Source of the DNA: an uncultured Gammaproteobacteria bacterium
GTDB lineage: Bacteria > Patescibacteriota > Microgenomatia > Daviesbacterales > UBA10151
Direction of reading: 5' to 3'
DNA length: 64,000 nucleotides
Assembly (NCBI GenBank): GCA_964551605.1
Contig: CAZKCV010000001.1
Location: forward strand, 61,992 to 125,991
The notes under the pieces are model-generated. The model worked only from the letters and a program-made list of their open reading frames with translations, was not told the DNA's origin and searched no databases. Below, piece after piece: positions 5,517-61,016 of this stretch. Within the stretch, counting starts at the first letter, position 1; the number at the start of each line of letters is the position of its first letter. A program made the position numbers and the translations under genes.

Positions 5517-5564
5517 AAGTAAAAATTCTACCAGAAACATTATATGAAATCCATCAGCCCATAG

Positions 5565-31687: not shown

Positions 31688-32155
31688 CTAATTTAGCATG
31701 ACAATTGCCAAGTTTAAAACAGCAGCAAAACTGACCCAAAGAAGATACGGTATTAATAAATTACCGGCTGATCTGTTTATCCTGTAGAAAGATTTTATTG
31801 TCAAAAAAATTGCCAGCCATAAAGCTACAATATCCACTAAAGCTAAGATGGGATTCTTCATCCCAAAAAAGAAGATGGACCATAAAACATTAAGTCCTAA
31901 CTGAACAAAGAATAAATTAAAAGCATTTTGTTTTAACTTAAATCTAGAAGTCCAAACTAAATATAAAGAAATTCCCATCAAGATATAAAGAATGGTCCAG
32001 GCTGGCCCGAAGACCCAATTCGGCGGAGAAAAGACAGGTTTATTTAAAGTAGCATACCAGGTAGGAATGGAGGAAACCGTAAAGAATGACCCTAAAACTC
32101 CTGCTCCTAAACAAAGGCCTATGGATAAAATTAACTGCGGAATCTTAATGGGCAT
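31688..32155 (-). CDS. tspO: TspO/MBR-family tryptophan-rich sensory protein
   Basis: TWYATLNKPVFSPPNWVFGPAWTILYILMGISLYLVW. Five TM helices. Confidence 0.8.
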   Translation of the reverse strand: MPIKIPQLILSIGLCLGAGVLGSFFTVSSIPTWYATLNKPVFSPPNWVFGPAWTILYILMGISLYLVWTSRFKLKQNAFNLFFVQLGLNVLWSIFFFGMKNPILALVDIVALWLAIFLTIKSFYRINRSAGNLLIPYLLWVSFAAVLNLAIVMLN

Positions 32156-43063: not shown

Positions 43064-44031
43064 AACTTATCTTTGTGGGAGACGTCATGATAGGCAGAGG
43101 AGTCAATGCTATTTTAAGACATAACCCGCCTTCCTATCCTTGGGGTAACACCTTAAGTTTTTTCCATGATGCTGATTTAAAGGTTTGCAACCTGGAGTGT
43201 GTTATCGCGGATACCGGAAAACCATGGCCCGGCAAAACTTTTCATTTTCAGACAGATCCAAAAAATGTTGAAGTTCTAAAAATTGCCCGCTTTTCTCCCA
43301 TATCCATAGCTAATAATCATACATTGGATTTTGATGCGGAAGCCTTGGAACAGATGACAAATATCCTCAAATCAAACTCGGTAAATTTTGCCGGTGCCGG
43401 AGAGAATATTGTTGAAGCTTCGATGCCGGTCTTAGAAGATGGTGAGAGAAATTACGTCGGGATGGTTGCTTTTACTGACAACGAACCTGATTGGGAAGCA
43501 GGCAACGAAACACCGGGAATTTTTTATGTACCCATTAATTTAGAAAACAGCAGAGCCAAAATGCTTTTTAATATCATCAAAAAAACCCGTGATGATGTCA
43601 AAGTTTTAATAGTTTCCGCTCACTGGGGCCCTAACTGGGGCTATGAAGTACCAAAAGAACATATCAGTTTCGCCCATGCTCTGGTTGATGCGGGAGTTGA
43701 TATTATCTACGGTCATTCACCCCATGTCTTCAGAGGTATTGAGATTTACCGGGGAAAACCAATACTTTATTCCGCCGGGAATTTTATTGACGATTATGCT
43801 ATAGATGAAAGGGAACGAAACGACCAGTCCTTTATTTTCATTGTAGAAATCGAACCGCCCAATTTTAAAAAGCTGACGCTCTTCCCCACAATCATTAGGG
43901 ATTATCAAGCAAGACTGGCAGAAGAATCTGAAGCGGAAGAGATCGCATCTAAGATGAAAAATCTTTGTGAGTCACTTCATACAAAATCAATCTGGAATCC
44001 GGACTTAAAATGTCTCGAGATTGGAGTCTAG
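43060..44031 (+). CDS. CapA/PgsA-like metallophosphatase (poly-gamma-glutamate/capsule synthesis family)
   Basis: MKLIFVGDVMIGRGVN N-terminus, GNHTLDF, SAHWGPNWGYE. Confidence 0.7.
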   Translation: MKLIFVGDVMIGRGVNAILRHNPPSYPWGNTLSFFHDADLKVCNLECVIADTGKPWPGKTFHFQTDPKNVEVLKIARFSPISIANNHTLDFDAEALEQMTNILKSNSVNFAGAGENIVEASMPVLEDGERNYVGMVAFTDNEPDWEAGNETPGIFYVPINLENSRAKMLFNIIKKTRDDVKVLIVSAHWGPNWGYEVPKEHISFAHALVDAGVDIIYGHSPHVFRGIEIYRGKPILYSAGNFIDDYAIDERERNDQSFIFIVEIEPPNFKKLTLFPTIIRDYQARLAEESEAEEIASKMKNLCESLHTKSIWNPDLKCLEIGV

Positions 44032-44644
44032 AATGGATGTTTGGACAATTATTACTATTTTAATTTTTGCTTCTTTTACCTGGCCACTAATAAAAAATCG
44101 GTTAGACCTTTATAAAAGGCTTTCCATTATTAAGCAAATTGAGTCAGAACGCAAATCCCGGGTCATCACTATGATTCACCGCCAAGAAACCTTAAGTTTG
44201 TTAGGCATACAAGATGCAGTCTTGGGTTCGCTGGATCCGATTATCACCAGTGCCGGAGGCAGTTTTTATCCGGCCGTCTCGATTTTAAGTGCCTTATCAA
44301 TACCAAACAGAAACAGGGATGATACTACTTTGATTTTAGGAGATGTTGCTCAAAAGGCCATGAAACAAATCAAAGAAATCGTCTATTCTCTCTTATTAAG
44401 ACACCAAAGCACAAAAAGGGCTTCCCGGATGGCCAGCTTTTTGGTCAGCGGAGAGCGCACTCATGATTTTCCTCTAACCTTTGAAAATATTAAAGGCCTG
44501 GGGCTATCTGTTTCCGATTATCTACCAAAAGCCGTCAGTCAATTAATGGCTCTTTATCCTCAACCTTCTATGAAACAACAGTCTGTGGAATTTATACCTA
44601 CGCCATACTTTCCGCAGATTCCAAAGAGGGGTAAACAGATGTGA
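44021..44644 (+). CDS. hypothetical membrane-anchored protein
   Basis: N-terminal TM helix. Weak resemblance to membrane-bound ClpP-fold (SDH-type) proteins; not confident. Confidence 0.35.
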   Translation: MESRMDVWTIITILIFASFTWPLIKNRLDLYKRLSIIKQIESERKSRVITMIHRQETLSLLGIQDAVLGSLDPIITSAGGSFYPAVSILSALSIPNRNRDDTTLILGDVAQKAMKQIKEIVYSLLLRHQSTKRASRMASFLVSGERTHDFPLTFENIKGLGLSVSDYLPKAVSQLMALYPQPSMKQQSVEFIPTPYFPQIPKRGKQM

Positions 44645-44762: not shown

Positions 44763-45791
44763 ATGAATTTAAGTGTAATATTATTTTTAGGTTACCTGAT
44801 AGGTTCCCTTTCACCAGGTTATTTTTTCGGACAACTTGTCAAACATATCGATATCCGCCGGTTTGGCAATAAGAATACCGGAGCCACCAATACTTATCAT
44901 GTAGTAGGCCCTGTCTTTGGCATCCTGACAGGAATTTTTGATTTTGCCAAAGCACCTTTGGCCTATTATCTGACAGCTTCCGGCAGCTTGCCCTTCCTGC
45001 CCAGGATTGAACCGGATCTGGCCATCTTGGCCGGCCTGGCAGTAGTAGTCGGGCATATTAAACCTTTCTATCTTAACTTCAAGGGTGGTATGGGAGTGGC
45101 ACCTCTTTGGGGGCTTTGTATGGTTACTATTCTCTATACCCGCTCCATTTTTGCTTTACTGCTTATTTCCGGAACCGTTATTTATACTATTCACGTTTCC
45201 AGAAGCTTAAAGTTTACCCATCCTCTTCGCCAAGTTCTAAAGCTTGGTATGTTGGTTATACCCCTCGCCGCAATCTGGGTTCCTAAAGACTTTATCCTCC
45301 TCATAATCCTGTTGCTTTTTTTGCTCTTTGCGCTCCTTGATGTTATTCGCGTTATTAACCCAAATATTAACAAGCGTTATCTTAACCTGAAAATCTTTGC
45401 CAAAGAGAAAGAAAGATTCCGGCCATCCGGTTCAACCCTACTTTTCTTAAGTGCCTTATTGGTATTTTGGTTATTCTCTGAAGATATAGCCGTTATCTCT
45501 TTGGCCTGTTTCCTGGTAGGAGACTCTCTTGCTCCGATGGGTCAACGGTTTCTTTCCGTTCAATTGCTTGGCAGCAAAACCCTGGGTGGTGCCCTGGTGG
45601 TCTTCTTCGCTTCCCTTCTTACAGGTTTATTCCTCCAATCACTAACTCCGCTTAGCTTGTCTTTTACCTTAATTATCACTGCTGCAGTATCAATAGCCAC
45701 ATTGGACCAATTTTCCTTTCTTATAGACGATAATTTGTTGGTGCCATTCGGCACTGCCGTGGCCTTAACAATTTTACGGATTCCGGCTTAA
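44763..45791 (+). CDS. membrane fusion protein: PlsY-like acyltransferase N-domain + CTP_transf_1-like (CdsA/dolichol-kinase-family) C-domain
   Basis: PlsY motif FGNKNTGATNTYHVVG near the N-terminus. C-terminal LVGDSLAPMGQRFLSVQLLGSKTLGGALVVF resembles the CdsA-family GD..A..iG..fG....KT.EG block. Confidence 0.5.
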   Translation: MNLSVILFLGYLIGSLSPGYFFGQLVKHIDIRRFGNKNTGATNTYHVVGPVFGILTGIFDFAKAPLAYYLTASGSLPFLPRIEPDLAILAGLAVVVGHIKPFYLNFKGGMGVAPLWGLCMVTILYTRSIFALLLISGTVIYTIHVSRSLKFTHPLRQVLKLGMLVIPLAAIWVPKDFILLIILLLFLLFALLDVIRVINPNINKRYLNLKIFAKEKERFRPSGSTLLFLSALLVFWLFSEDIAVISLACFLVGDSLAPMGQRFLSVQLLGSKTLGGALVVFFASLLTGLFLQSLTPLSLSFTLIITAAVSIATLDQFSFLIDDNLLVPFGTAVALTILRIPA

Positions 45792-49663: not shown

Positions 49664-50779
49664 ATGGCCGATAACAAACAATCTATTACTTATTCAGAGG
49701 TTGGAGATGATTATGACACTAAGGATCCGATTAAAAAATTAGCCCAAACTGCTGCTGCCCAGACTGCGAAAAATTTAGCAAAACTTAATTATAAAGAAAT
49801 ATCAGACAGTCGCGGAGAATCGGCATTTGTTTGGCAAATCACCGAGAATACATTTATGGCCTCAGTCATTGAAGGCTTAGGAACAAAAAACCTCATTGCT
49901 GATGAGATGAGAGCAGTTACCGGGAAGACTTATTATGACATTATCGCCCACGATACCGTGGCTTCCATCATAAATGATCTTTCCTCCTCAGGCGCCAAAC
50001 CATTTGCCCTGTATGCATACTGGGCGATTGAGGATAATAGTTGGCTGCAAGACGAGCAGCGCATGAAGGATTTGATCCGAGGTTGGAAAGCTGCTTGTGA
50101 TCTCTCAGGAGTAACTTGGGGTGGCGGTGAAACGCCTACGCTCAAAGGAATTATTGAACCGGGGACCGTAGACCTGGCCGGATCAGCAATAGGAATTATA
50201 AACCAGGATAAAAGAAGAATAAGGGCAGAGAGACTGAAAAAGGGAGATCGAATTATTTTCTTAAAAAGCAACGGCATTAATGCAAACGGTGTTTCACTTG
50301 CCAGAGCGGTTTCTAAAGAATTACCAGAAGGATATGCAACAAAACTATCCGACAACACAATGTTTGGAGATGCCCTTCTGACAAAAACCAATATCTATGC
50401 AAACTTAATTCAAGACTTATTAGATCAGGATGTAGATATCCACTATATCTCCAACATTACAGGTCACGGACTCCGCAAGTTGATGCGTGCGCCGCAAAAT
50501 TTTATTTACGCAGTAGAAAAAGTGTACCCTGTATCAGAACTATTTTTGTTTATTCAAAAACAGGCAAATTTATCAGATAGTGAAATGTATGGAACATATA
50601 ACATGGGACAAGATTATGCCCTATTTTTACCGGCAGAAGATGTAAGAAAAGCAGAGGAAATTATTAAAGAAAATGGCTTTGAAAGTTTAGATGCAGGATA
50701 TTTAGAAGAGGGTGAAAGGAAAGTGGTTATTGAACCAAAAAATATTACCTTCGGGGGCGAAACTCTTTCACTGCGTTAA
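49664..50779 (+). CDS. purM: AIR-synthase-family protein, PurM-like (phosphoribosylformylglycinamidine cyclo-ligase candidate)
   Basis: SVIEGLGTKNLIAD resembles DGVGTK. IAHDTVASIINDLSSSGAKPFALYAYWA resembles GiDLVAMcVNDl..GAePLfFLDY. GGGETPTLKG resembles GGETAEMPG. Confidence 0.6.
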   Translation: MADNKQSITYSEVGDDYDTKDPIKKLAQTAAAQTAKNLAKLNYKEISDSRGESAFVWQITENTFMASVIEGLGTKNLIADEMRAVTGKTYYDIIAHDTVASIINDLSSSGAKPFALYAYWAIEDNSWLQDEQRMKDLIRGWKAACDLSGVTWGGGETPTLKGIIEPGTVDLAGSAIGIINQDKRRIRAERLKKGDRIIFLKSNGINANGVSLARAVSKELPEGYATKLSDNTMFGDALLTKTNIYANLIQDLLDQDVDIHYISNITGHGLRKLMRAPQNFIYAVEKVYPVSELFLFIQKQANLSDSEMYGTYNMGQDYALFLPAEDVRKAEEIIKENGFESLDAGYLEEGERKVVIEPKNITFGGETLSLR

Positions 50780-50799
50780 TCCTGAGCGGAGCCGAAGGG

Positions 50800-51780
50800 T
50801 TAGTTTCTTTCTTCTTTGTGGGACTTAGGAATTAATTTCTCAGATATTGAATCACCTTTATAAATACAATTTATAGCTTCTGCTAAAAGTTTAGCAACAG
50901 AAATTACAACAAACTTAGGATTTTCCAAAACTTCTTTTCTAAGCGGCACTGTATCTGTAATAAAAATTTTTTCAAGAGGCGAATCATTAATCCTTTTTAA
51001 TGCCGGGTCAGAAAAAAGTCCATGTGTCGCAGCAGCCGAAACACTTTTGGCTCCCCTCTTCTTAATTAATCTGGCTGCTTCACAGATGGTTCCGGCAGTA
51101 TCAATCATATCATCTACCAATAATACATCTTTGCCTTTGACATCACCGATCATGTCCAAAACCTTGCTTTCATTTTTCTTCATCACATCCCTTTCCTTAA
51201 AAACAATGGCTACCCCTTCTGCATTTAGTAAATCTGCATAAAATGCAGCCTTTAATACACCGCCTTTATCTGGTGAGGCTATGACTAAATTTGAACTAAA
51301 GACTTTTTTAAGTTCCGGGAGAAAAGAATAACTACTGTAGAGATTATCCCAGGGGATTTCCACAAAGCCCGGTTCCTGTTCGCTGTGGATATCCACAGTC
51401 AAAATTCTATCAGCTCCGGAAAATTCAATTAGTCTGGCAATTAAAGAAGCTGAGATTGGCACCCGGGGCCTGTCTTTACGGTCCTGCCGGGAATAACCAA
51501 AATAAGGAATGATGGCTGAAACCTCCGAAGCGGAAGACCTTTTTGCTGCATCTATAATTAAAAGCAATTCCATTATATTAGCATCTACCGGCGGACAAGT
51601 TGGTTGGATAATAAAAACATCTCTTTTCCTTAAATTCTCGGGGATAACAATTCTTTTCTCGCCGTCTGCAAAAACAGTGACAGTTTCATCCGCATCTTTA
51701 CCTAAATTTTTGGCAATTTCTTTGGCTAATTTTAAGTTGGCAGTTCCTGTCAGTAGTACAAAACCGTTATCGTTAGCCAT
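50800..51780 (-). CDS. prs: ribose-phosphate pyrophosphokinase
   Basis: PRPP-binding loop VLLVDDMIDTAGTICEAARLI. N-terminal FVLLTGTANLKLAKEIAKNLG. Confidence 0.9.
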   Translation of the reverse strand: MANDNGFVLLTGTANLKLAKEIAKNLGKDADETVTVFADGEKRIVIPENLRKRDVFIIQPTCPPVDANIMELLLIIDAAKRSSASEVSAIIPYFGYSRQDRKDRPRVPISASLIARLIEFSGADRILTVDIHSEQEPGFVEIPWDNLYSSYSFLPELKKVFSSNLVIASPDKGGVLKAAFYADLLNAEGVAIVFKERDVMKKNESKVLDMIGDVKGKDVLLVDDMIDTAGTICEAARLIKKRGAKSVSAAATHGLFSDPALKRINDSPLEKIFITDTVPLRKEVLENPKFVVISVAKLLAEAINCIYKGDSISEKLIPKSHKEERN

Positions 51781-51961
51781 AGAGATTAGATTAAACCATT
51801 ATACCATGAGTTCAATACACACCCTCAAGCTTACTTAAAGTTTCTCTCCTTTATTGAAAAATTGATTTTCTCAACCATATAGCAAATAATACTATATCTT
51901 ATAGTTATCGTCAAGTACCGATACTCAGGTTTTATTATTCTGATAACACAACTTTACTCGT

Positions 51962-51999
51962 TTAGGCCGATCGGTCTATTTGTCTAAAGTTAGAGATTC
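51962..51999. promoter_or_regulatory. direct-repeat copy (operator-like) between the PaaX-like paralogue and the prs start
   Basis: ttaggccgatcggtctatttgtctaaagttagagattc. Partner at 52525-52562 (ttgggccgatcgtcaagtttgactaaagtcagatattc) contains palindromes GTCAAnnTTGAC and TGACTnnAGTCA. Confidence 0.5.
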
Positions 52000-52499
52000 T
52001 AAGCTACATCAGTACCAACCACTACCCTCACCCAATCAGACAAACCAACCTCTTTAATAAAATTCCGCAAGGGACTTGTTACATCCTTTTTACCGGCCCA
52101 GACACTTTTCTGCCAAGGCTCAAACTCCCACTCCCTAAATTTACTCCGCAAGATTTTTCTTAATTTCCGGTGCTTTTCCGGGATATCAAAAATGACAATC
52201 CTCCACTTCCCATCCCATTTATCCTCTGCTAAAAGCTTTTTTATTATTGCTTCCTCCCTACCTCTATCTGTTAATTTCAACATAATTTTCCCACCGTCTT
52301 TTTTGGTTTCAATAAAACCTTTTTCACGCAAATCCCTAACCGCTTGATAAAGAGCTCCGTAATTTATTTCTCTTGGATCTCGTCCCGGATAAACATACCA
52401 GTGGGAGTTGTAGGCAAAATCAATTAGCAAAACACCACTCTGAATCGATTTCTCCAAACCAAGAAGCAAAAAATAACTTAATGAATTTTTCTTAATCAT
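51999..52499 (-). CDS. PaaX-like transcriptional regulator (paralogue of 9219-9713)
   Basis: WDGKWRIVIFDIPEKHRKLRKILRSKFREWEFEPWQKSVWAG. N-terminal wHTH. Confidence 0.6.
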   Translation of the reverse strand: MIKKNSLSYFLLLGLEKSIQSGVLLIDFAYNSHWYVYPGRDPREINYGALYQAVRDLREKGFIETKKDGGKIMLKLTDRGREEAIIKKLLAEDKWDGKWRIVIFDIPEKHRKLRKILRSKFREWEFEPWQKSVWAGKKDVTSPLRNFIKEVGLSDWVRVVVGTDVA

Positions 52500-52524
52500 G
52501 AGTACATTCTCAAACTATACTTAT

Positions 52525-52562
52525 TTGGGCCGATCGTCAAGTTTGACTAAAGTCAGATATTC
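52525..52562. promoter_or_regulatory. direct-repeat copy (operator-like) in the divergent region between the PaaX-like paralogue and the GNAT gene
   Basis: Matches 51962-51999 at about 31 of 38 positions. Starts 26 nt upstream of the regulator start codon. Confidence 0.5.
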
Positions 52563-52588
52563 CTTATCTCCTATGGTAAAATGAACAT

Positions 52589-53143
52589 ATGAAACCAGGA
52601 ACAATTGTTTATACAGGTAAATCAAAGTCAAGAAAAGAGATAGTTTTCCGCTATCCTAATAAAAATGACCTAAGATCTTTATGGGAATACATTAATAAGA
52701 TCTCTAAAGAGAAAACCTTTATTACTTTTCAGGGGGAAGAAATGACTTTGGAAGGAGAAAATAAGTGGCTGGAAGGAGAACTTAAAAAAATTGCTGAGGG
52801 AAAAGCTGTTCAACTATTGGTTTTTTCTGATAATAAACTAATTGGTGTTTCCGGAATTACTATGAAAGAAAGAGCGGAAAAGCATGTTGGCATTTTTGGC
52901 ATTACTATAGCAAAGAGGTTCCGAGATGACGGCATTGGAGCGCTTCTAATGGAAACTGTTTTAAAAGAGGCAAAGAAAAATCTCAAAGACTTAAAGATTG
53001 TTACCTTAGGAGTTTTTGGCAACAACGCTGTTGCTCAGAAATTATATAAGAAAATGGGTTTTATTGAATATGGGAACTTACCAAAAGGAGCTATCCACAA
53101 TGGCGTCCCTGTTGATCATGTCTACATGTACAAAGAAGTTTAG
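52589..53143 (+). CDS. GNAT-family N-acetyltransferase
   Basis: Acetyl-CoA motif A region RFRDDGIGALLMETVLKEAKK ... LYKKMGF. Confidence 0.7.
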   Translation: MKPGTIVYTGKSKSRKEIVFRYPNKNDLRSLWEYINKISKEKTFITFQGEEMTLEGENKWLEGELKKIAEGKAVQLLVFSDNKLIGVSGITMKERAEKHVGIFGITIAKRFRDDGIGALLMETVLKEAKKNLKDLKIVTLGVFGNNAVAQKLYKKMGFIEYGNLPKGAIHNGVPVDHVYMYKEV

Positions 53144-54132
53144 ACTACCTCTTTCAGATTATTTTTAATTCTAAGATCTACATTTTTTAATAGATCCGGC
53201 ACAAATTTTTTGCCGGTGATTTTTTCGTAAATCCCCATATAAAGCATACTCATTTTAGCAATAAATTCAGGCGGCATTTTGGGAATCTTACCCTTTCCGG
53301 TGAATCCATGTTCTTTGAACCAAATTCTTAAAGGTTCTTTATCATAGCTTTCCGGTTCTTTGCCGGATAAGAATCTTTTATAGTAGGTTTTTTTAATCCA
53401 GTATCTGGAGGAGTCTGGAGTGTGAATTTCATCAACTAAAATTAGTTTTCCATTAAGACCGTTAGGTCGCAAGCTCTGCTTATCATCCAAACCAAATTCA
53501 TACTTGGTATCTACTAAAATAATTCCTGCTTTATCACAAATTTTTTGCCCTCTTTCAAAAAGAGCTAAAGCTGCTTTTTTCATCTGCTTCCAGATTAAGG
53601 GTGACGCAATCTTTTTTTTAATAATATCTTCTTCCGTTAATCTTTCATCATGTCCGGCTTCTGCCTTGGTGGTAGGCGTAATCACCGGCTTAGGCAGCTT
53701 TTGATTTTTCTTTAAACCTTCCGGAAATTTAATACCATAAATTATTCTCTCCCCTTTTTCATACGAACCCCAGATCGACGTATCCGTCACCCCAGTAATA
53801 TAACCCCTCACAACCATTTCAATCGGAATAACCTTACAGTTTTTAACCACCATCACATTGGGATCCGGGACAGACAGCAGATGATTTTGAATAATATCTG
53901 AAGTTTGCTTAAACCAAAACTCTGAAAGACGCGTCAATACCTGGCCTTTAAAGGGAATCAGTCCCAAAACTCTGTCAAAAGCAGACTGGCGATCTGTAGT
54001 AATTATTATCCGTTTTTCTTTTAAGGCATAACTGTCACGCACTTTACCCTGGTGCTTTTTTTCAAGATTGGGAAGGTTTACGGTTTTAAGGGCAAGGGGA
54101 ATATTTTCAATAACTTTTTGCTTACTGATCAT
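53140..54132 (-). CDS. purC: phosphoribosylaminoimidazole-succinocarboxamide synthase (long form)
   Basis: GKVRDSY, IPIEMVVRGYITGV, LVDTKYEFG blocks. Confidence 0.85.
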   Translation of the reverse strand: MISKQKVIENIPLALKTVNLPNLEKKHQGKVRDSYALKEKRIIITTDRQSAFDRVLGLIPFKGQVLTRLSEFWFKQTSDIIQNHLLSVPDPNVMVVKNCKVIPIEMVVRGYITGVTDTSIWGSYEKGERIIYGIKFPEGLKKNQKLPKPVITPTTKAEAGHDERLTEEDIIKKKIASPLIWKQMKKAALALFERGQKICDKAGIILVDTKYEFGLDDKQSLRPNGLNGKLILVDEIHTPDSSRYWIKKTYYKRFLSGKEPESYDKEPLRIWFKEHGFTGKGKIPKMPPEFIAKMSMLYMGIYEKITGKKFVPDLLKNVDLRIKNNLKEVV

Positions 54133-54610
54133 TTTCTATCTTTTGGGCTTTTTCTTCGACACCAGCTGCTAAATTATTTTTATATTCCGCTAACTTTTCT
54201 TCCAAACTTTTATCGGAAGTCGCCAAAATCTGCACTGCCAAAAGACCGGCGTTTTTAGCACCATTTATAGCAACTGTGGCTACCGGAATTCCCGGAGGCA
54301 TCTGCATAGTAGAAGCTAATGCATCTACTCCACTTAAGACCCCACTTTCCAACGGCACCCCGATAACCGGTAGCGGGAAACGGGCTGCAATTACACCGGC
54401 CAAATGGGCTGCCATTCCAGCTCCGGCAATTATTACTTTTATGCCACGGGTACTGGCATCTATTACTAACTCCTCTGTCCTATCAGGTGACCTATGGGCA
54501 GAAGAGATTGTCAGGTCATATTCCACACCGAAATCTTCCAGCACTTTTGCAGCTTCTTTCATTACCGGCAAATCAGAATCTGAACCAGTAATAATTAGAA
54601 CTTTTTTCAT
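54122..54610 (-). CDS. purE: AIR carboxylase catalytic subunit / N5-CAIR mutase (PurE)
   Basis: VLIITGSDSDLPVMKEAAKVLEDFGVEYDLTISSAHRSP ... IIAGAGMAAHLAG. No purK nearby, so the class is undetermined. Confidence 0.9.
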   Translation of the reverse strand: MKKVLIITGSDSDLPVMKEAAKVLEDFGVEYDLTISSAHRSPDRTEELVIDASTRGIKVIIAGAGMAAHLAGVIAARFPLPVIGVPLESGVLSGVDALASTMQMPPGIPVATVAINGAKNAGLLAVQILATSDKSLEEKLAEYKNNLAAGVEEKAQKIENDQ

Positions 54611-56001
54611 AATGTTATTTTCTTAATTTGTTCTGCTAATGTCAACGCTTTTTCGCTGGCACAACCAATATGATTTTTGGCATCCAGCAGCTGCACTATT
54701 TCAATTGGCTTTAAGTATTGCCCGATGACAGGATTTTCCGACATTAAATCTTCCATGGGATTTACATTACCTTCCTGAATGGATTCCCAGGCTTTCATGG
54801 AAATCTCCCTTAATTCCTCATGCATTTTTTGCCTGTCTGCTCCCCTTTTAACTGCTTCTAAAATCACACTTTCTGTAGCCGAAAAAGGCCAGTAAGTTTC
54901 CAGATTCTTCTTAATTTTTCTCTCATTAATAATGAGGCCATCCAGAATATTAATAGAAGAATTTAGTATCTCATCAACAGCCAGAAATATTTCCGGAAGC
55001 ATTACTCTTCTACTGGCTGAATCATCTAATGTTCTTTCCAGCAATATATAGGCGGCATTATCCCAACTAATCTTCGATAAATGAGCTACCAATCTGGCCA
55101 ATGAACAGATCTGTTCAGATTTTACGGGATTTTTCTTAAACGGCATAGCTGAGGAGCCGACTTGGGATTTTCCGAAAGGTTCCTGCCACTCACCAAATCC
55201 CGGTGATTGCATAATCCTTAGATCAAAAGCAAATTTATTTAAAGATTGGGCTATTCCTGCCAGCACATTACCAACTAACACTTCAATTTTCCGGGGAGCA
55301 GTTTGGTTGGTAATTTCAAATGCTTCTATGCTTAATTCCTTAAGTACCGAAGCCTCCATTTCGTTTGCCTTTTTATTATCCGATAACTTTACATAACTTG
55401 CTGCTGTTCCCACGGCCCCCTTTAAACCCTTACTTTTTAAGTTCTTTTTTACAAATCGCAGGAGTTCCAAATCCAGCAGTAAATCCTGGGCATAAAAGGC
55501 AAATCTATAGCCTAAAGTTGTAGGCTCTGCCGGCTGAAGGTGCGTATAACCCATACACACAAAATCTGCATATTGGTTAATCTTTTTCCCAAATATTTTT
55601 AGCAAGTTTATCAGTTGCTTCTCTATAATGGAAAGCGCTTCAGTAATCCTGATGGTTTCAGCATTGTCTGAAACATCCATACTGGTAGCACCTAAGTGAA
55701 TTTTCCCTCCGCCTACTTTAGCTTTTTCAGCAAACTCTTTTATAGCTGCTACCACATCATGTCGGGTATCTTTTTCAATCTCCCAAATTCTTTCAATGTC
55801 TATTTCATCCTGATGCTTTTTTAAATCTGCTAACTCTTCCTCTGAAACTAAGCCTTCTTTAGCCTGCGCTTCTGCTAAAGCTACCCAGACTTTTCTCCAT
55901 AATCTGTATTTGTTTTCTTCAGAAAAAATCTGCCGCATCTTTTCGGACCCGTAACGCCAGGAAAATGGTGATTGGTAGGTTGAAAAATTAATGTTTTTCA
56001 T
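54607..56001 (-). CDS. purB: adenylosuccinate lyase
   Basis: Fumarate-lyase signature GSSAMPFKKNPVKSE. Confidence 0.85.
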   Translation of the reverse strand: MKNINFSTYQSPFSWRYGSEKMRQIFSEENKYRLWRKVWVALAEAQAKEGLVSEEELADLKKHQDEIDIERIWEIEKDTRHDVVAAIKEFAEKAKVGGGKIHLGATSMDVSDNAETIRITEALSIIEKQLINLLKIFGKKINQYADFVCMGYTHLQPAEPTTLGYRFAFYAQDLLLDLELLRFVKKNLKSKGLKGAVGTAASYVKLSDNKKANEMEASVLKELSIEAFEITNQTAPRKIEVLVGNVLAGIAQSLNKFAFDLRIMQSPGFGEWQEPFGKSQVGSSAMPFKKNPVKSEQICSLARLVAHLSKISWDNAAYILLERTLDDSASRRVMLPEIFLAVDEILNSSINILDGLIINERKIKKNLETYWPFSATESVILEAVKRGADRQKMHEELREISMKAWESIQEGNVNPMEDLMSENPVIGQYLKPIEIVQLLDAKNHIGCASEKALTLAEQIKKITL

Positions 56002-56009
56002 TTTTTTGA

Positions 56010-56037
56010 TTAGAAATTAAAAATTAGAAATTAGAAA
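56010..56037. repeat. 7-bp tandem array ttagaaa-ttaaaaa-ttagaaa-ttagaaa between the purH stop and the purB start
   Basis: Same array type as 25571-25598. Confidence 0.6.
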
Positions 56038-56040
56038 TTT

Positions 56041-57576
56041 TTAATGTCTAAAAGCCCTCCTGCCGGTAAAGACCATTGGTATACCGGCTTTATCAGCTGC
56101 GTCAATTGAGGCCTGATCATTTACAGAACCCCCCTGCTCCAGTATATCTCCGATCCCGCATTTTGCCGACATCTCCACGGAATCTTCAAAAGGAAAGAAA
56201 CTATCACTTACTAATATACCACCCCTTGCTGATTTTCCTGCTTGTTCCAATGCGATTTTAGTAGCACCTACCCGGGATGTTTGACCGGAACCAATTCCCC
56301 GGGTCATCGGGATATCTTTATCAATTACAATGACAGCATTGGATCTGACTGCCTTAACTGCCTTAAAACCAAATTTCATCTGTTCCAGTTGTTTCGCAGT
56401 CGGTTTTTTCTTGGTTACAACTTTCCAATCCTTAAAACTCTTTTCTACATCGTCATCAAAATCCTGAAGCAGAACTGCTCCGGCAAAGTATTTCAAATCC
56501 CAGTTTTCGCTTCTTCTAATTTCTATCGGTCCGAAGGTGTAAACTCCCATGCTCTTTCTGACTTTCTTCAAAAGCTCTAAAGCATCTTCAGAAATTGAAG
56601 GTACTGCCACTATATCAGTATTTCCCTCCCGTTCATTTTTAAAAGTGGCAATATTTTTTGCAGCTTTTAAATCCATGTGTTTATTTAATACGACTACTCC
56701 GCCAAAGGCTGAAACCGGATCTGCTTCAGTAGCCCGGTACAATGCTTCATATGCATCTTTGCCGGTTGCAATCCCACAAGGGCTTAAATGTTTTATTACA
56801 GCAGCAGCCGGTTCCTTAAATTGCCTGACTGTTTCCAGTCCGGCATGAATATCACCAATGTTAGTGCCACTTAGCTCCCTGCCCCAGAGATGTTTTAATT
56901 TAGAAAAAGGAGAATTTGTTTTTGGCATCAGGTATAAAGCTCCCTCCTGATGTGGATTTTCACCGTAACGGAGGACATTAGTCTTCCGAAGAGGAACTGT
57001 TAACTCTTTCGGAAACTTCTCTTCCGAGAAAAAGTTACCGATTTGGGAATCATAAAATGACAGATGATAAAACGCTTTAGCTGCCATCTTTTGTCTTAAT
57101 TCCTTTGATACTTTTGATACCTTAACTGCCTTTGATACTTCTTCATAATCTTTGGGGGTTACTACCACTAAGACATTCTCATAATTTTTAGCCGCTGCCC
57201 TAATCATGGTTGGCCCCCCGACATCTATTGTTTCGATACCGGGTTTTTCTTCAAAAGGGTAAAGATTACAAACCACGATATCAATTTGCGGCATCCCCAA
57301 TTTCCGGGCCTCTTTTACATGCTTGGGGTTTTTTCTGTCAAACAAAATTCCTGACTCAATCTGGAAACTGATGGTTTTCATCCGGCCGTCAAATGCGTCC
57401 CGGGGGTTTCCGGTGATTTCATCAATGGGAATAACTTTTATGCCTTCTTTTTTTAATAACTCGAAAGTCCCGCCGGTAGAAATAATTGCATAACCTGCTT
57501 TTTCCAAAACTTTTGCAAAATCAGCTATTCCGCTTTTATCATAAACGCTAACTAATGCAAATTTTTGAGAGCTCAT
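56041..57576 (-). CDS. purH: bifunctional AICAR transformylase / IMP cyclohydrolase
   Basis: MGS-like N-domain ALVSVYDKSGIADFAKVLEKAGYAIISTGGT and AICARFT C-domain, 511 aa. Confidence 0.9.
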   Translation of the reverse strand: MSSQKFALVSVYDKSGIADFAKVLEKAGYAIISTGGTFELLKKEGIKVIPIDEITGNPRDAFDGRMKTISFQIESGILFDRKNPKHVKEARKLGMPQIDIVVCNLYPFEEKPGIETIDVGGPTMIRAAAKNYENVLVVVTPKDYEEVSKAVKVSKVSKELRQKMAAKAFYHLSFYDSQIGNFFSEEKFPKELTVPLRKTNVLRYGENPHQEGALYLMPKTNSPFSKLKHLWGRELSGTNIGDIHAGLETVRQFKEPAAAVIKHLSPCGIATGKDAYEALYRATEADPVSAFGGVVVLNKHMDLKAAKNIATFKNEREGNTDIVAVPSISEDALELLKKVRKSMGVYTFGPIEIRRSENWDLKYFAGAVLLQDFDDDVEKSFKDWKVVTKKKPTAKQLEQMKFGFKAVKAVRSNAVIVIDKDIPMTRGIGSGQTSRVGATKIALEQAGKSARGGILVSDSFFPFEDSVEMSAKCGIGDILEQGGSVNDQASIDAADKAGIPMVFTGRRAFRH

Positions 57577-58664
57577 GTTAGTATTTTATTTAATTTCCCC
57601 TTTTCTATTGCTTCTTTTATTTCCAAAGCTACCCGTTTTCCCATTGAGATATTTTCTCCATATAAATACATACCATAAGGGGTGGCAAAAATACCAGGGG
57701 ATCCGGGCATCCGGGGAGATACATCAAAAACAATGATCTCCTTTTTAGGTGGGCCGGCAGTAATCATAGTTTGCAGACCAAAGGGGCCAATCACACCAGG
57801 AGCAACCATTTTCTGAGAAGCCTGTACAAATCTTTCTCCCATTGCAAATGCATCTTCAAGTAAAGATTCCAGAACAGTCACTGCAATATGTCCGGCTTCT
57901 TCATACTTTATTCTTCCACCCATGTCCCGGAATTGCTGCTGGTATTCTGGAGATAATTTCGAAAGTCCTTCATGGTTAGTCTGGCGCCGTGTATCGGTAC
58001 CAATTAATTCCAGTCGCTGATTAATTGGATCATAAAAGAAATTAAAGTTAACTTGCACTCCAACGATAAACTCTTCAATAACAGCGTGTTTTAAATGTTC
58101 CTCTGTAATTTCCCCTTTTCCAATTCTTTCCTCTATTTTTTTCTCATATTCCTTAAAATTATTAACTAAGAAAAATGCCCTTTCAAAACCTCTTTCTTTT
58201 TCCAGAACTTTTACAATACAAAGCCTGTCTATATCTTTAGGATCTTTAAATTGTTTGGGGTAGCGGATTTTGGCAGCATCCAATAAATCATATTGATTTG
58301 GTTTTACACCCCGCTCTTCAGCTTTAAGCAAAAACCTGTTTCCAAACATCGGCACTTTAAATTTTTTCTCAATGGCGTTGTAATCATTAATGTAAACTTC
58401 AAATGACCTGTGGGGAATAAAAATAGAATTTCTCTTCAATAATTCTTGTTGGACTTTTTCACTGAGTATCTCTTTGAATTCATCCAATATAATTACTTCA
58501 TCTACACAACCTAATTGGCCTTCAGACGCGTAATATTTTTTGTATGTTTTCTCTCTGCCCTTTTTACAAATAACTAATGTCTTAAATCCTAAATCCTTTG
58601 CGCCGCGGCACACATCTAAGGCAGAATGACTTCCTAAAACGGCAATTGTATACTGTTTGCCCAT
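57573..58664 (-). CDS. purP: PurP-family ATP-grasp protein (archaeal-type FAICAR synthetase paralogue)
   Basis: YTIAVLGSHSALDVCRGAKDLGF, PHRSFEVY, NFFYDPI. Paralogue of the adjacent gene. Confidence 0.75.
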   Translation of the reverse strand: MGKQYTIAVLGSHSALDVCRGAKDLGFKTLVICKKGREKTYKKYYASEGQLGCVDEVIILDEFKEILSEKVQQELLKRNSIFIPHRSFEVYINDYNAIEKKFKVPMFGNRFLLKAEERGVKPNQYDLLDAAKIRYPKQFKDPKDIDRLCIVKVLEKERGFERAFFLVNNFKEYEKKIEERIGKGEITEEHLKHAVIEEFIVGVQVNFNFFYDPINQRLELIGTDTRRQTNHEGLSKLSPEYQQQFRDMGGRIKYEEAGHIAVTVLESLLEDAFAMGERFVQASQKMVAPGVIGPFGLQTMITAGPPKKEIIVFDVSPRMPGSPGIFATPYGMYLYGENISMGKRVALEIKEAIEKGKLNKILT

Positions 58665-59683
58665 TAGTCCAGCACCTCTTTTAGTTTATTCATTTTTATC
58701 GCATCCTTAATCTCTTTTGCAATACGTCTTCCGGTTGACATTGGTTCATCATAATTTAAATAAGTATAAGGCGAGCCATTAATAAAACAATTAGTTCCTG
58801 CTACAATTCTGGCAGAAATTTCTATCACATAAATTTCTTCAGTTGAGGTAATAATGGCTTCTAAACAAAAAGGGCCAAAAAGACCCTTAGTTGATATAAG
58901 CTTTTGGGAACTCTTAACTACCCGTTCAGCCATAGCCACAGCTTCTGCTAAAAGGGATTCCCTGATAGCCATTGGGATATTAGCTACCACTTCAAAAGAA
59001 GGCTCTATATTTAAACCTCTCTGGTTTTTGGCAGGAATCCTGCCAAGGGAATCAACATTTGTTTCATAGCGTTTATCAATACTCATGATCTCCACTCTTT
59101 TGGTTAAAGGAGAATAGAAGAAATGAAAATATACCGGCACTCCGATGACATATTCCTGGACGATAAATCTTTCTTCACTGTAGTTTTTTAACTTCTCATC
59201 AAACTCTTTTTGGTTTCTGGCAGTAAAATAACCCTTACCCCCGGAAGCACCATAAGACTTTACAATTACCGGGCGGTCAATCTTATCGCCTCTTTTAAAG
59301 CGATGCGGCACTTTAATCCCTGATTCCTCCATCCAGGTCCTCTGCATCTTGCGGTTTTCCTCCCAATCCAAAACTTTCTTGTTGCCAAAATACAAAGCAT
59401 TCATATTTTTATTTTGGTCCAGCCCTAAGTAAGCTACAAATGAGCCATGAGGAATAATAATTGCATTTTTCTTGATAAGTTGTTTTTCAAGAGATGGAAA
59501 ATTTTTCCAGGAGTCGATTTCTAAAACTTCATCAATAAAATTACTGTAGGAATTGTAAAGAGTGAATCGATCCGGTGTGGCTACTACTGCAGTTTTAAAA
59601 CCCTCGTCTTTTGCCCCTTTAAGAATTTGCAGGGCGGAGTGAGAACCTAAAGTGACAATGGTATAGTCTTTTATAATTCCCAT
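58664..59683 (-). CDS. purP: 5-formaminoimidazole-4-carboxamide ribonucleotide synthetase PurP (archaeal-type, formate/ATP-dependent)
   Basis: YTIVTLGSHSALQILKGAKDEGF, PHGSFVAYLG, FHFFYSPL, MSIDKRYETNVDSLGRIPAKNQ and GPFCLEAI align along the full length with the M. jannaschii PurP sequence as recalled. Confidence 0.85.
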   Translation of the reverse strand: MGIIKDYTIVTLGSHSALQILKGAKDEGFKTAVVATPDRFTLYNSYSNFIDEVLEIDSWKNFPSLEKQLIKKNAIIIPHGSFVAYLGLDQNKNMNALYFGNKKVLDWEENRKMQRTWMEESGIKVPHRFKRGDKIDRPVIVKSYGASGGKGYFTARNQKEFDEKLKNYSEERFIVQEYVIGVPVYFHFFYSPLTKRVEIMSIDKRYETNVDSLGRIPAKNQRGLNIEPSFEVVANIPMAIRESLLAEAVAMAERVVKSSQKLISTKGLFGPFCLEAIITSTEEIYVIEISARIVAGTNCFINGSPYTYLNYDEPMSTGRRIAKEIKDAIKMNKLKEVLD

Positions 59684-59685
59684 AA

Positions 59686-61014
<1,329 letters not shown>

Positions 61015-61016
61015 GC

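What the first reader, a model, noticed from the sequence alone, without database searches (positions are those of the whole stretch)
44763..45791. Unusual single-polypeptide fusion of a PlsY-like domain with a CdsA/dolichol-kinase-family (CTP_transf_1-like) domain
The N-terminal ~150 aa carry the PlsY glycerol-3-phosphate acyltransferase signature (GNKNTGATN). The C-terminal ~170 aa carry the GD..A..G..F......KT.GG block typical of CTP-dependent lipid cytidylyl/phosphotransferases (CdsA, dolichol/phytol kinase, CarS). The two lipid-pathway steps are normally separate proteins that also need PlsC between them. A fusion embedded in a glycan/lipid cluster (CapA, GT39-like, CE4 deacetylase, methyltransferase) suggests a non-canonical membrane-lipid or lipid-carrier activation route in a lineage with minimal lipid biosynthesis.
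Basis: partly seen in the sequence, partly recalled or inferred. Interest (0 to 1): 0.5.

Follow-up and report, generated by a model that had tools for sequence, protein, structure and literature searches.

The report
PlsY fused to lipid-kinase-like domain
A membrane protein of an ultra-small (CPR) bacterium joins the acyl-phosphate-binding core of the lipid enzyme PlsY to a domain related to CTP-dependent lipid kinases; this conserved, apparently undescribed fusion may explain how these bacteria, which lack the usual acyl-phosphate-making enzyme, build membrane lipids from scavenged parts.

The parts
44763..45791 (+). Complete fusion gene, 342 aa plus stop; about 12 predicted TM helices (5 + 7).
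   Evidence: ORF list. AF2 model pLDDT 94.8, pTM 0.89 with helix list. Hydropathy and positive-inside analysis.
44763..45212 (+). PlsY-like N-domain (residues 1-150), equivalent to TMH1-TMH5 of Aquifex PlsY; TMH6-7 and Motif 3 are missing.
44865..44900 (+). PlsY Motif 1, GNKNTGATNTYH (residues 35-46). N38, T42 and N43 are kept (aaPlsY N37, T41, N42). N36 replaces Ser35 and H46 replaces Arg45.
   Evidence: Column counts in 71 short fusions: S35 position is N53/Y8/R4/T3/S2; R45 position is R24/H18/F11/Y10; N42 is 71/71. Roles of these residues from PMC5700162.
45054..45101 (+). Acyl-phosphate 'phosphate hole': His98 (aaPlsY H92) through Loop3 GGMGVA (residues 108-113; aaPlsY G102-A107). M110 replaces Lys104.
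   Evidence: H92 70/71; G102, G103 and A107 71/71; G105 70/71; K104 position R45/K19/M5. Structural roles from PMC5700162.
45198..45245 (+). Domain junction on the cytoplasmic face: Ser146 (possible aaPlsY Ser142 equivalent), then PLRQVLKL (residues 154-161), the fusion-specific version of the kinase R-K-x-x-H 'charged clamp' (R156, K160).
   Evidence: Core-group counts (n=66): S146 46, P154 50, R156 66, L159 57, K160 65. Stand-alone relatives have His at position 160 in 138/147. Clamp role taken from the PfPolK model (bioRxiv 10.1101/2023.07.17.549440).
45216..45788 (+). C-terminal CTP_transf_1-superfamily domain (residues 152-342, 7 TM), kinase-branch-like, with the CdsA fold.
45339..45413 (+). 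Conserved D193-x-x-R196 and E217 on cytoplasmic helix ends and loop.
   Evidence: Core group D193 64/66, R196 66/66, E217 66/66. Stand-alone relatives D/E 147/147, R 141/147, E 147/147.
45519..45590 (+). Derived nucleotide-binding motif GDSLAPMGQRFLSVQLLGSKTLGG (residues 253-276). D254, A257, K272, T273 and G276 are kept. The motif's first Gly (+7 from Asp) and its Glu (position 275) are replaced, and P258 is gained.
   Evidence: Core against stand-alone counts: D254 66/66 v 147/147; position 261 Gly 10/66 v 146/147; position 275 G48/A18 v E119/147; P258 65/66 v A94/147. Motif census. Published motif DXXAXXXGXXXGX8KKTXEG (PMC13586052). Yeast Dgk1 D177A is inactive (PMC2459266).
45705..45746 (+). 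Conserved acidic cluster: D315, then D322-D323-N324-L-L-V-P328.
   Evidence: Core group D315, D322, D323, N324 and P328 all 66/66. Stand-alone relatives E141, D120/N23, D146, N146, P137 of 147.

Best explanation
SHOWN: the gene encodes one rigid, roughly 12-TM membrane protein made of two known folds. The N-domain is the TMH1-5 core of the acyl-phosphate:glycerol-3-phosphate acyltransferase PlsY. It keeps the acyl-phosphate 'phosphate hole' and acyl-carbonyl contacts. It has lost TMH6-7, Motif 3 (His177, Asn180) and the clamp residues Ser35 and Arg45 that bind G3P in canonical PlsY. The C-domain belongs to the polyprenol/diacylglycerol-kinase branch of the CTP_transf_1 superfamily. It starts with its basic 'clamp' exactly where PlsY TMH5 ends on the cytoplasmic side. 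It keeps every conserved Asp, Glu, Arg and Lys of that family. In this short CPR subgroup it carries fixed replacements: His to Lys, Gly to other residues, Glu to Gly/Ala, Ala to Pro. INFERRED mechanism: the two halves work as one composite, cytoplasm-facing lipid active site. The kinase-like domain uses a nucleoside triphosphate (ancestrally CTP) and its Asp-bound metal to phosphorylate a scavenged lipid at the membrane interface. Most plausibly this is a free fatty acid, giving acyl-phosphate. The product passes laterally into the adjoining PlsY pocket, whose groove the C-domain now lines in place of TMH6-7. The PlsY core then transfers the acyl chain to a glycerol-phosphate-type acceptor held by a rebuilt clamp (N36, N38, N43, R/K110, S146, R156, K160), giving a lysophospholipid. 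This would give CPR and DPANN cells, which lack fatty-acid synthesis and PlsX, a one-protein route from scavenged fatty acid to lysophosphatidic acid.
For: Architecture. A pTM of 0.89 for the whole chain suggests a fixed domain interface. Selection on both halves: the acyl-phosphate site is invariant (H92 70/71; N42, G102, G103, A107 71/71). The C-domain core is invariant in 66/66 (R156, R196, E217, D254, G276, D315, D322, D323, N324, P328), with K272 at 65/66. The replaced positions are themselves conserved (K160 65/66, P258 65/66, G/A275 66/66), which argues for a changed function rather than decay. Topology: Motif 1, Loop3, the junction clamp and all conserved C-domain polar residues fall on the K/R-rich cytoplasmic side. 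The fusion recurs in independent forms: short (CPR, Woesearchaeota) and long (Nealsonbacteria complete genome L038, L039, WOR-3, a DPANN-like contig), where the long forms keep the canonical kinase motif D..A...G...G in 6/6. [quoted passage not shown] Family precedent for CTP-dependent phosphorylation of membrane lipids: yeast Dgk1, DOLK, PfPolK. The window also encodes Lgt, so the cell needs diacylglycerol phospholipid.
Against: No biochemical data exist for any member. Characterised members of this kinase branch phosphorylate lipid alcohols, not carboxylates, so a fatty-acid kinase would be a new chemistry for the fold. In the window's own subgroup three published CTP-site features are missing: the motif Gly and Glu and the clamp His. 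Nucleotide use may therefore be altered or lost. Loss of S35, R45, H177 and N180 may mean G3P is no longer the acceptor. I could not read model coordinates, so adjacency of the two sites and a connecting cavity are untested. I could not test whether genomes with the fusion lack PlsX and FakA. Gene neighbourhood gives no support: no conserved partner. A DegV/patatin/PAP2-like context near one stand-alone relative did not recur.
Confidence: 0.35

Rival explanations
1. Two independent activities on one chain. The N-domain is the cell's ordinary G3P acyltransferase. The C-domain is a separate CTP-dependent lipid-alcohol kinase (undecaprenol/polyprenol, diacylglycerol or monoacylglycerol kinase). 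It recycles carrier lipid or salvages host glycerolipid into phosphatidate or lysophosphatidate. The fusion serves only co-expression and co-localisation.
For: The nearest sequence relatives are stand-alone proteins named dolichol or diacylglycerol/polyprenol kinase. All characterised family members phosphorylate lipid alcohols. Long fusions keep the full kinase motif in 6/6. The window and related loci contain glycan genes that would use polyprenyl phosphate.
Against: It does not explain why PlsY lost TMH6-7, Motif 3 and the S35/R45 clamp precisely in the fused proteins, while a CPR genome with an unfused PlsY keeps Motif 3 (L045). It does not explain the high pTM, which suggests an integrated interface. 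The short subgroup has lost the CTP-motif Gly, Glu and His.
Confidence: 0.25
2. In the short CPR form the C-domain is a non-catalytic scaffold (a pseudoenzyme). It structurally replaces PlsY TMH6-7 and Motif 3 and may contribute R156 and K160 to G3P binding. On this view the protein is functionally just a PlsY.
For: Three near-invariant kinase-family features are lost in this subgroup: D..A...G...G in 2/71, K[ST].EG in 3/71, R[KR]..H in 2/71. The C-domain is less conserved than the N-domain (mean identity to the query 0.46 against 0.58). The C-domain begins exactly where PlsY TMH5 ends.
Against: Eleven polar or structural residues of the kinase-family core are conserved in all or nearly all of the 66 sequences at 41-67% overall identity, including the Asp that is essential in Dgk1 and the DDN cluster. 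A pure scaffold would not be expected to keep a buried acidic cluster. It also leaves the acyl-phosphate source unexplained.
Confidence: 0.15
3. The PlsY-like core no longer acylates G3P. The enzyme uses acyl-phosphate, or another lipid phosphate, with a different acceptor such as glycerol, G1P, a glycerophosphodiester or a lysolipid. Alternatively the whole protein is a lipid kinase or phosphotransferase that uses the PlsY core only as a lipid-phosphate binding site.
For: Four of the six G3P contact residues that are 89-92% conserved in 7,288 PlsY sequences are not kept: S35 is Ser in 2/71, R45 is Arg in 24/71, and H177 and N180 are absent. TIGR00023 is below its equivalog cutoff. The fusion occurs in archaea whose backbone is G1P. 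CPR membranes are reported to be rich in lysolipids.
Against: N37, N42, a basic residue at the K104 position (64/71) and a Ser at the S142-like position (46/66) remain, so a rebuilt G3P site is possible. No positive evidence points to any alternative acceptor.
Confidence: 0.15
4. One reading: the C-domain is a CdsA/CarS-type cytidylyltransferase. It converts the PlsY product (LPA) or PA into a CDP-activated lipid and so bypasses or follows PlsC.
Confidence: 0.07

Closest known systems
PlsY (acyl-phosphate:glycerol-3-phosphate acyltransferase; Aquifex aeolicus structure 5XJ5; PF02660 / TIGR00023)
   Different: Cut after TMH5. No TMH6-7 and no Motif 3 (H177, N180, R183, E189). S35 becomes Asn, R45 is variable, K104 is mostly Arg (Met in the window protein). 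Below the TIGR00023 equivalog cutoff. Always followed by a 190-aa extra domain.
CTP-dependent polyprenol/diacylglycerol kinases of the CTP_transf_1 superfamily (dolichol kinase Sec59/DOLK, phytol kinase VTE5, farnesol kinase, PfPolK, yeast Dgk1; COG0170-type stand-alone bacterial and archaeal proteins)
   Same: Closest sequence relatives (27-31% identity over the whole domain). Same length and 7-TM layout. Shared conserved residues R156, D193, R196, E217, D254, A257, K272, G276, D323, N324, P328, including the Asp equivalent to the essential Dgk1 D177 by motif position.
   Different: Fused to PlsY instead of stand-alone. In the window's subgroup the clamp His becomes Lys, the motif Gly (146/147 in relatives) is lost, the Glu of K-[ST]-x-E-G becomes Gly/Ala, and a Pro follows the motif Ala. 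No direct Pfam hit. Substrate and nucleotide are unknown.
CdsA, CDP-diacylglycerol synthase (Thermotoga maritima 4Q2E)
   Different: No sequence-level match. CdsA signature absent. Different reaction class expected: phosphoryl rather than cytidylyl transfer.
CarS, CDP-archaeol synthase (5GUF)
PlsX and FakA/FakB (the known suppliers of acyl-phosphate to PlsY)
   Same: Would be functional analogues if the best explanation is right: they make the acyl-phosphate that PlsY consumes (PMC7242380 and PMC10146087 abstracts).
   Different: Unrelated soluble or peripheral proteins. PlsX uses acyl-ACP and FakA uses ATP with a FakB-bound fatty acid. No homology to the C-domain.

Membership tests
PlsY (PF02660 / TIGR00023) | Matches the Pfam G3P_acyltransf domain above the gathering score | tested here: met
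   91.2 bits against 24.1, E=1e-25, residues 9-188. The part beyond about residue 150 is hydrophobic overlap with the next domain; the PDB profile alignment stops at aaPlsY residue 139.
PlsY (PF02660 / TIGR00023) | Reaches the NCBIfam equivalog cutoff for PlsY (same function expected) | tested here: not met
   TIGR00023 scores 79.4 bits against a cutoff of 137.2. All other PlsY equivalog models are also far below cutoff.
PlsY (PF02660 / TIGR00023) | Seven-TM fold | tested here: not met
PlsY (PF02660 / TIGR00023) | Acyl-phosphate site: His92, Thr41, Loop3 G102-G103-x-G105-x-A107 | tested here: met
   Window protein has H98, T42, G108, G109, G111, A113. Family counts: H 70/71, T 57/71 (S 7, A 7), G, G and A 71/71.
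PlsY (PF02660 / TIGR00023) | G3P phosphate clamp Ser35, Arg45, Lys104, Asn180, plus Ser142 and His177 | tested here: not met
   Window protein has N36, H46 and M110. Family counts: Ser 2/71, Arg 24/71, Lys 19/71 (Arg 45). Motif 3 H..N[ILVM] in 0/71 against 29/33 canonical controls. A Ser142-like Ser is kept in 46/66.
PlsY (PF02660 / TIGR00023) | Catalyses acyl transfer from acyl-phosphate to G3P | not testable with these tools
   Needs an enzyme assay.
CTP_transf_1 superfamily (PF01148) | Direct match to the Pfam model | tested here: not met
   No hit for the whole protein at E<=1 or for the isolated C-terminal half at E<=10. Transitive support only: P0104 scores 25.3 bits against 24, and 31/150 relatives hit at E<=0.01.
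CTP_transf_1 superfamily (PF01148) | CdsA/CarS-type intramembrane fold | tested here: met
CTP_transf_1 superfamily (PF01148) | Conserved catalytic Asp (Dgk1 D177, conserved in all cytidylyltransferases) | tested here: met
   D254 is invariant in 66/66 core fusions, 5/5 and 6/6 of the other fusion groups, and 147/147 stand-alone relatives. Equivalence to Dgk1 D177 is by motif position (G-D-x-x-A), not by a direct alignment with Dgk1.
Polyprenol/DAG kinase branch (DOLK, VTE5, Dgk1, PfPolK) | CTP-binding motif D-x-x-A-x-x-x-G-x-x-x-G-x(8)-K-[KS]-T-x-E-G | tested here: not met
   The window protein has D254-x-x-A257-P-x-G260...K272-T-L-G-G276. D..A...G...G occurs in 2/71 short fusions (6/6 long, 132/147 stand-alone). 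K[ST].EG occurs in 3/71 (5/6, 115/147). Motif taken from PMC13586052.
Polyprenol/DAG kinase branch (DOLK, VTE5, Dgk1, PfPolK) | N-terminal basic clamp R-K-x-x-H | tested here: inconclusive
   R156 is invariant, position 157 is K/H/R in 55/66, but His is replaced by Lys in 65/66. The charge is kept; the identity is changed.
Polyprenol/DAG kinase branch (DOLK, VTE5, Dgk1, PfPolK) | C-terminal D-D-N-[LIF]-x-[IV]-P cluster and conserved E (E217) and D/R (D193, R196) | tested here: met
   DDN[LIFMV] in 69/71 short fusions and 118/147 stand-alone relatives. E217 and R196 66/66.
Polyprenol/DAG kinase branch (DOLK, VTE5, Dgk1, PfPolK) | CTP-dependent phosphorylation of a membrane lipid | not testable with these tools
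   Needs an enzyme assay.
CdsA (CDP-diacylglycerol synthase) | Signature S-x-[LIVMF]-K-R-x(4)-K-D-x-[GSA]-x(2)-[LIF]-[PGS]-x-H-G-G-[LIVMF]-x-D-R-[LIVMFT]-D (PROSITE PS01315, recalled from memory) | tested here: not met
   Strict pattern and relaxed HGG..DR: 0/71, 0/6, 0/147. Relaxed KR....KD: 0/71, 0/6, 1/147.

The most novel reading that the evidence does not exclude
The C-domain is a membrane-integral, nucleotide-dependent fatty-acid kinase, a reaction not known for the CTP_transf_1 fold. It makes acyl-phosphate in the bilayer and hands it directly to the fused PlsY core. One polypeptide would then convert scavenged free fatty acid plus a glycerol-phosphate-type acceptor into lysophospholipid. 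This would replace the FASII/ACP/PlsX or FakAB routes in CPR bacteria and DPANN archaea, and would account for PlsY without PlsX and for their lysolipid-rich membranes.
Probability: 0.25. Interest if true: 0.8.

Novelty: new variant of a known kind. Interest (0 to 1): 0.6.

Why it matters
CPR/Patescibacteria and DPANN archaea make up a large share of microbial diversity. They have fatty-acyl membranes but no recognisable way to make or activate fatty acids. A published analysis states that their PlsY has no known source of its acyl-phosphate donor (PMC7242380). In many of these lineages, including Nealsonbacteria, what is annotated as 'glycerol-3-phosphate acyltransferase' is in fact a PlsY core welded to a lipid-kinase-like domain, with both active sites remodelled in a conserved way. 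This gives the field a concrete, cloneable candidate for the missing activation step. It also warns against transferring the PlsY function by annotation: the canonical G3P site is not there. The same caution applies to 'lipid divide' phylogenies that treat the archaeal copies as plain PlsY orthologues (PMC6431249). If the coupling is real, it would be a new reaction for the CdsA/dolichol-kinase fold and a minimal pathway for lipid salvage.

Tried and rejected
1. Direct domain searches of the C-terminal half (Pfam at E<=10, NCBIfam at E<=1) found nothing useful. Taken alone, this would have wrongly 'refuted' the finding.
2. Sequence-profile searches of the PDB with the whole family (A1) or the C-domain family (A2) found only PlsY, not CdsA, CarS or any kinase.
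4. The AFDB fold libraries were unavailable, so I could not get annotated structural neighbours such as VTE5, DOLK or Dgk1 models.
5. Exact look-up of the window protein's contig failed, so I could not see the rest of the 222,933-bp source contig (length).
6. Conserved-operon approach: I clustered ORFs from 28 fusion loci. No partner family occurs in more than 7 loci, and those that recur (PRPP synthase, a DsbA-like protein, P-type ATPase, DEAD helicase) are not lipid genes. The 'glycan/lipid cluster' idea is rejected as lineage-local synteny.
7. Rosetta-stone check: are stand-alone C-domain relatives next to plsY or fak genes? One locus (L006) has patatin, a PAP2-like ORF and DegV nearby. Four other contexts do not. 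The ~207-aa ORFs upstream of two relatives are unrelated to each other and to PlsY. Rejected as evidence.
8. The window's other membrane or unannotated ORFs were scanned for plsC, cdsA, plsX, fak and pgsA. None was found; only Lgt, EamA, TspO and similar.
9. Literature searches for the fusion (PlsY with Patescibacteria, CPR, DPANN, dolichol kinase, fusion) found no description. I could not find the Dgk1 R76/K77/G184 mutagenesis I recalled, so I do not use it.
10. The promoter and terminator scan around the gene was uninformative.
11. The first locus scan with alignment A1 failed because the alignment was too diverse; I repeated it with A4.
Full report
**1. Observation**

The window holds an ATG-initiated ORF at 44763-45791 (+) of 342 aa. 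Intergenic gaps are 118 bp upstream and 132 bp downstream. I re-translated every motif coordinate quoted below.

Pfam finds a single family, PF02660 (PlsY, G3P_acyltransf): residues 9-188, E=1e-25, 91.2 bits. NCBIfam's PlsY equivalog TIGR00023 scores only 79.4 bits against a cutoff of 137.2. The C-terminal half alone hits nothing in Pfam at E<=10 or in NCBIfam at E<=1. Deeper evidence shows it is not.

**2. The C-terminal half is a real second domain**

- A database search returned about 75 full-length homologues of 315-362 aa from Daviesbacteria, Yanofskybacteria, Parcubacteria and other Patescibacteria, and from Woesearchaeota. It also returned longer versions of 398-446 aa (WOR-3 and others), and stand-alone proteins of 190-240 aa.
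- The sources name the stand-alone proteins 'dolichol kinase' or 'diacylglycerol/polyprenol kinase family protein'. They align to query residues 152-337 at 27-31% identity. One of them passes the PF01148 (CTP_transf_1) threshold.
- An exhaustive profile search with the C-domain found 9,818 relatives at E<=1e-3 and 857 at E<=1e-30. The best 150 are almost all 180-245 aa stand-alone proteins.
- 31 of those 150 hit PF01148, and no other family recurs.
- AlphaFold2 models are very confident: whole protein pLDDT 94.8 and pTM 0.89; isolated C-domain pLDDT 95.9.
- Foldseek and sequence profiles do not see CdsA or CarS at all.
- No kinase-branch member appeared in any search of solved structures, so fold similarity cannot tell a kinase from a cytidylyltransferase.

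**3. Which branch**

The CdsA signature is absent from all 71 short fusions, all 6 long fusions and essentially all 147 stand-alone relatives (the pattern was recalled from PROSITE). The stand-alone relatives carry the kinase-branch features:

| Feature | Stand-alone (n=147) |
|---|---|
| R-[KR]-x-x-H | 119 |
| D-x-x-A-x-x-x-G-x-x-x-G | 132 |
| K-[ST]-x-E-G | 115 |
| D-D-N-[LIFMV] | 118 |

These correspond to the published dolichol-kinase CTP motif DXXAXXXGXXXGX8KKTXEG (PMC13586052). They also correspond to the Arg-Lys-His 'charged clamp' of the modelled prenol kinase PfPolK (bioRxiv 10.1101/2023.07.17.549440). Yeast Dgk1, a CTP-dependent diacylglycerol kinase of this family, is inactivated by D177A in the G-D-x-x-A motif (PMC2459266). 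The C-domain is therefore related to the CTP-dependent lipid kinases rather than to CdsA.

**4. Both halves are derived, in a conserved way**

*PlsY half.* I used the residue roles and conservation figures of Li et al. 2017 (PMC5700162). I aligned 71 short fusions, 6 long fusions and 33 canonical PlsY sequences from the same hit list.

- The acyl-phosphate site is intact. H92 is His in 70/71. G102, G103 and A107 are 71/71. G105 is 70/71. T41 is T57/S7/A7. N42 is 71/71.
- The G3P clamp is not intact. S35 (92.5% Ser in 7,288 PlsY sequences) is Asn in 53/71 and Ser in 2/71. R45 (92.2% Arg) is R24/H18/F11/Y10. K104 is R45/K19/M5. The window protein has N36, H46 and M110 at these three positions.
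- Motif 3 (H177, N180, R183, E189) is found in 29/33 canonical controls and 0/71 short fusions.
- The profile alignment to 5XJ5 ends at residue 139, so TMH6-7 are gone.
- A Ser142-like Ser remains in 46/66.
- Long fusions keep extra helices and a His-less remnant of Motif 3.

*C-domain.* In the core CPR group (66 sequences, 41-67% identical to the query), R156, R196, E217, D254, G276, D315, D322, D323, N324 and P328 are 66/66. K272 is 65/66 and D193 is 64/66. The group also carries replacements that are themselves fixed:

| Position | Core CPR group (n=66) | Stand-alone (n=147) |
|---|---|---|
| 160 (clamp His) | Lys 65 | His 138 |
| 261 (motif Gly) | Gly 10 | Gly 146 |
| 275 (Glu of K-[ST]-x-E-G) | Gly 48, Ala 18 | Glu 119 |
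| 258 | Pro 65 | Ala 94 |

Because the replacements are fixed, this looks like a change of function, not decay. The more distant short fusions (P0068-73, including Woesearchaeota) and the long fusions keep the Gly and mostly the Glu.

**5. Topology and junction (inferred)**

Model helices and the positive-inside rule place the following on the cytoplasmic face: PlsY Motif 1 (loop 27-49), Loop3 (100-111), the junction (146-164, SRSLKFTHPLRQVLKLG) and all conserved C-domain polar residues.

Deleting two helices (TMH6-7) preserves topology. The C-domain's basic clamp therefore begins on the cytoplasmic side right after TMH5, which is roughly where Motif 3 would sit in PlsY. In aaPlsY the acyl groove is formed by TMH2 and TMH4-6, and the lateral gate lies between TMH2 and TMH5. 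In the fusion the C-domain must therefore line part of that groove.

The high pTM suggests a fixed interface. I could not read coordinates, so site-to-site distances are not tested.

**6. Distribution and context**

A scan of species-representative genomes found 28 loci with the full-length short fusion. They come from Daviesbacteria, eight Yanofskybacteria, Paceibacterota, other Patescibacteria and three Woesearchaeota. Some MAGs carry labels that look wrong. The window's best matches are 66-67% identical (Daviesbacteria), so the window is from a Daviesbacteria-like member of the CPR.

- The PlsY gene of a complete Nealsonbacteria genome (L038) is a long fusion with the canonical kinase motif. 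Another Patescibacterium (L045) has an ordinary 210-aa PlsY with Motif 3.
- One long fusion lies on an archaeal-type contig.
- No neighbouring gene family occurs in more than 7 of 28 loci.
- The Yanofskybacteria context is unrelated to the window's.
- In Daviesbacteria, only the downstream block is syntenic: a membrane protein, a methyltransferase, a CE4 deacetylase, an AIRS-domain protein and PRPP synthase. There, three other genes separate it from the fusion gene.
- The 'glycan/lipid cluster' is therefore local synteny, not a functional unit.
- In the window itself CapA (PGA_cap), the methyltransferase and CE4 are confirmed. The 509-aa membrane protein has no Pfam or PDB sequence match.
- I found no plsC, cdsA, plsX, fak or pgsA among the window ORFs I scanned. 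Lgt is present.

**7. Mechanism**

Probst et al. (PMC7242380) report that CPR genomes lack fatty-acid synthesis and ACP. [quoted passage not shown] They also report lysolipid-rich CPR membranes.

The fused domain belongs to a family that phosphorylates membrane lipids with CTP. The PlsY half-site that stays invariant is exactly the one that binds a lipid phosphate.

My best reading (confidence 0.35) is a composite enzyme. The kinase-like domain generates or positions the phosphorylated lipid, most plausibly acyl-phosphate made from scavenged fatty acid. The PlsY core then acylates a glycerol-phosphate-type acceptor held by a rebuilt clamp.

The architecture, the conservation pattern and the topology are shown. 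The substrate, the nucleotide, the coupling and the acceptor are inferred.

Rivals:
- Two independent activities, PlsY plus a polyprenol/DAG/MAG kinase (0.25).
- A non-catalytic scaffold domain in the short form (0.15).
- A changed acceptor, or a PlsY core that is no longer an acyltransferase (0.15).

**8. Novelty**

Databases annotate these proteins simply as 'glycerol-3-phosphate acyltransferase'. I found no paper that mentions the fused domain. A phylogenetic study of lipid genes treats the DPANN copies as PlsY orthologues (PMC6431249).

Both folds are known, so this is a new variant (architecture plus derived active sites) of known kinds, not a new category. Absence from the searchable literature is not proof that it is undescribed, and domain-architecture databases may already list it.

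**9. Verdict**

- Interest is 0.6. It is a conserved, testable candidate for a stated open question in CPR/DPANN lipid biology, and a caution against annotating these proteins as ordinary PlsY.

Noticed in passing
window 44021-44644 (+): A 207-aa ORF just upstream of the fusion gene matches only the C-terminal half (profile positions 148-277 of 286) of PF01972, the SDH-type ClpP-like serine protease. Its start overlaps the end of the CapA gene by 11 nt. It may be a truncated or N-terminally divergent protease.
   Followed up: no
Together with a SAM methyltransferase and a CE4 polysaccharide deacetylase it forms a block that is syntenic in Daviesbacteria (L004/L011).
   Followed up: partly
window 2582-3544 (-): Prolipoprotein diacylglyceryl transferase Lgt (PF01790, E=1.5e-33). 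Its presence implies the cell needs diacyl-phosphatidylglycerol even though no phospholipid-synthesis genes are visible in the window.
   Followed up: no
window 31688-32155 (-): A TspO/MBR family protein (PF03073, E=4e-53), a tryptophan-rich sensory or porphyrin-binding membrane protein, in a CPR-type genome.
   Followed up: no
window 49664-64000: Judging from the ORF translations and from the Pfam labels of the syntenic Daviesbacteria locus (AIRS/AIRS_C, PRPP synthase, SAICAR synthase), the right-hand part of the window appears to hold a run of purine-biosynthesis genes. I did not verify this with a family search on the window proteins.
   Followed up: no
L006 1761-8085: The closest stand-alone relative of the C-domain (P0081, 6001-6636) sits among lipid-related genes: patatin-like lipase (1761-2612), a membrane ORF with a PAP2-like SRYHLGEH motif (5345-5965) and a DegV/FakB-family fatty-acid-binding protein (7243-8085). 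This context did not recur near four other stand-alone relatives.
   Followed up: partly
L038 9941-11188 (Candidatus Nealsonbacteria complete genome CP179888.1); L039: The PlsY gene of a complete Nealsonbacteria genome is a ~400-aa 'long' fusion that keeps the canonical kinase motif (GDLFSKIFGLLFGQRKFFQQTWEGA...IDDNF). This is the CPR group in which PlsY without PlsX was reported.
   Followed up: partly
L024 1337-2395 and L027 3204-4196: Two different copies of the short fusion (48% and 47% identical to the query) lie on two contigs of the same MAG (CAYIJR01). They are possible paralogues, or the bin may be mixed.
   Followed up: no
L010, L013, L020: MAGs labelled 'uncultured Gammaproteobacteria' and 'Syntrophaceae' carry the CPR-type fusion at 48-66% identity, and L010 shares synteny with the window. 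The labels or the binning are probably wrong.
   Followed up: no
L007 6101-9242: A long fusion (P0074, 413 aa) lies on an archaeal-type contig (GatD, aEF1A-type elongation factor, wyosine synthesis) about 630 bp from a RuBisCO large-subunit gene. This is consistent with presence of the fusion in DPANN archaea.
   Followed up: no
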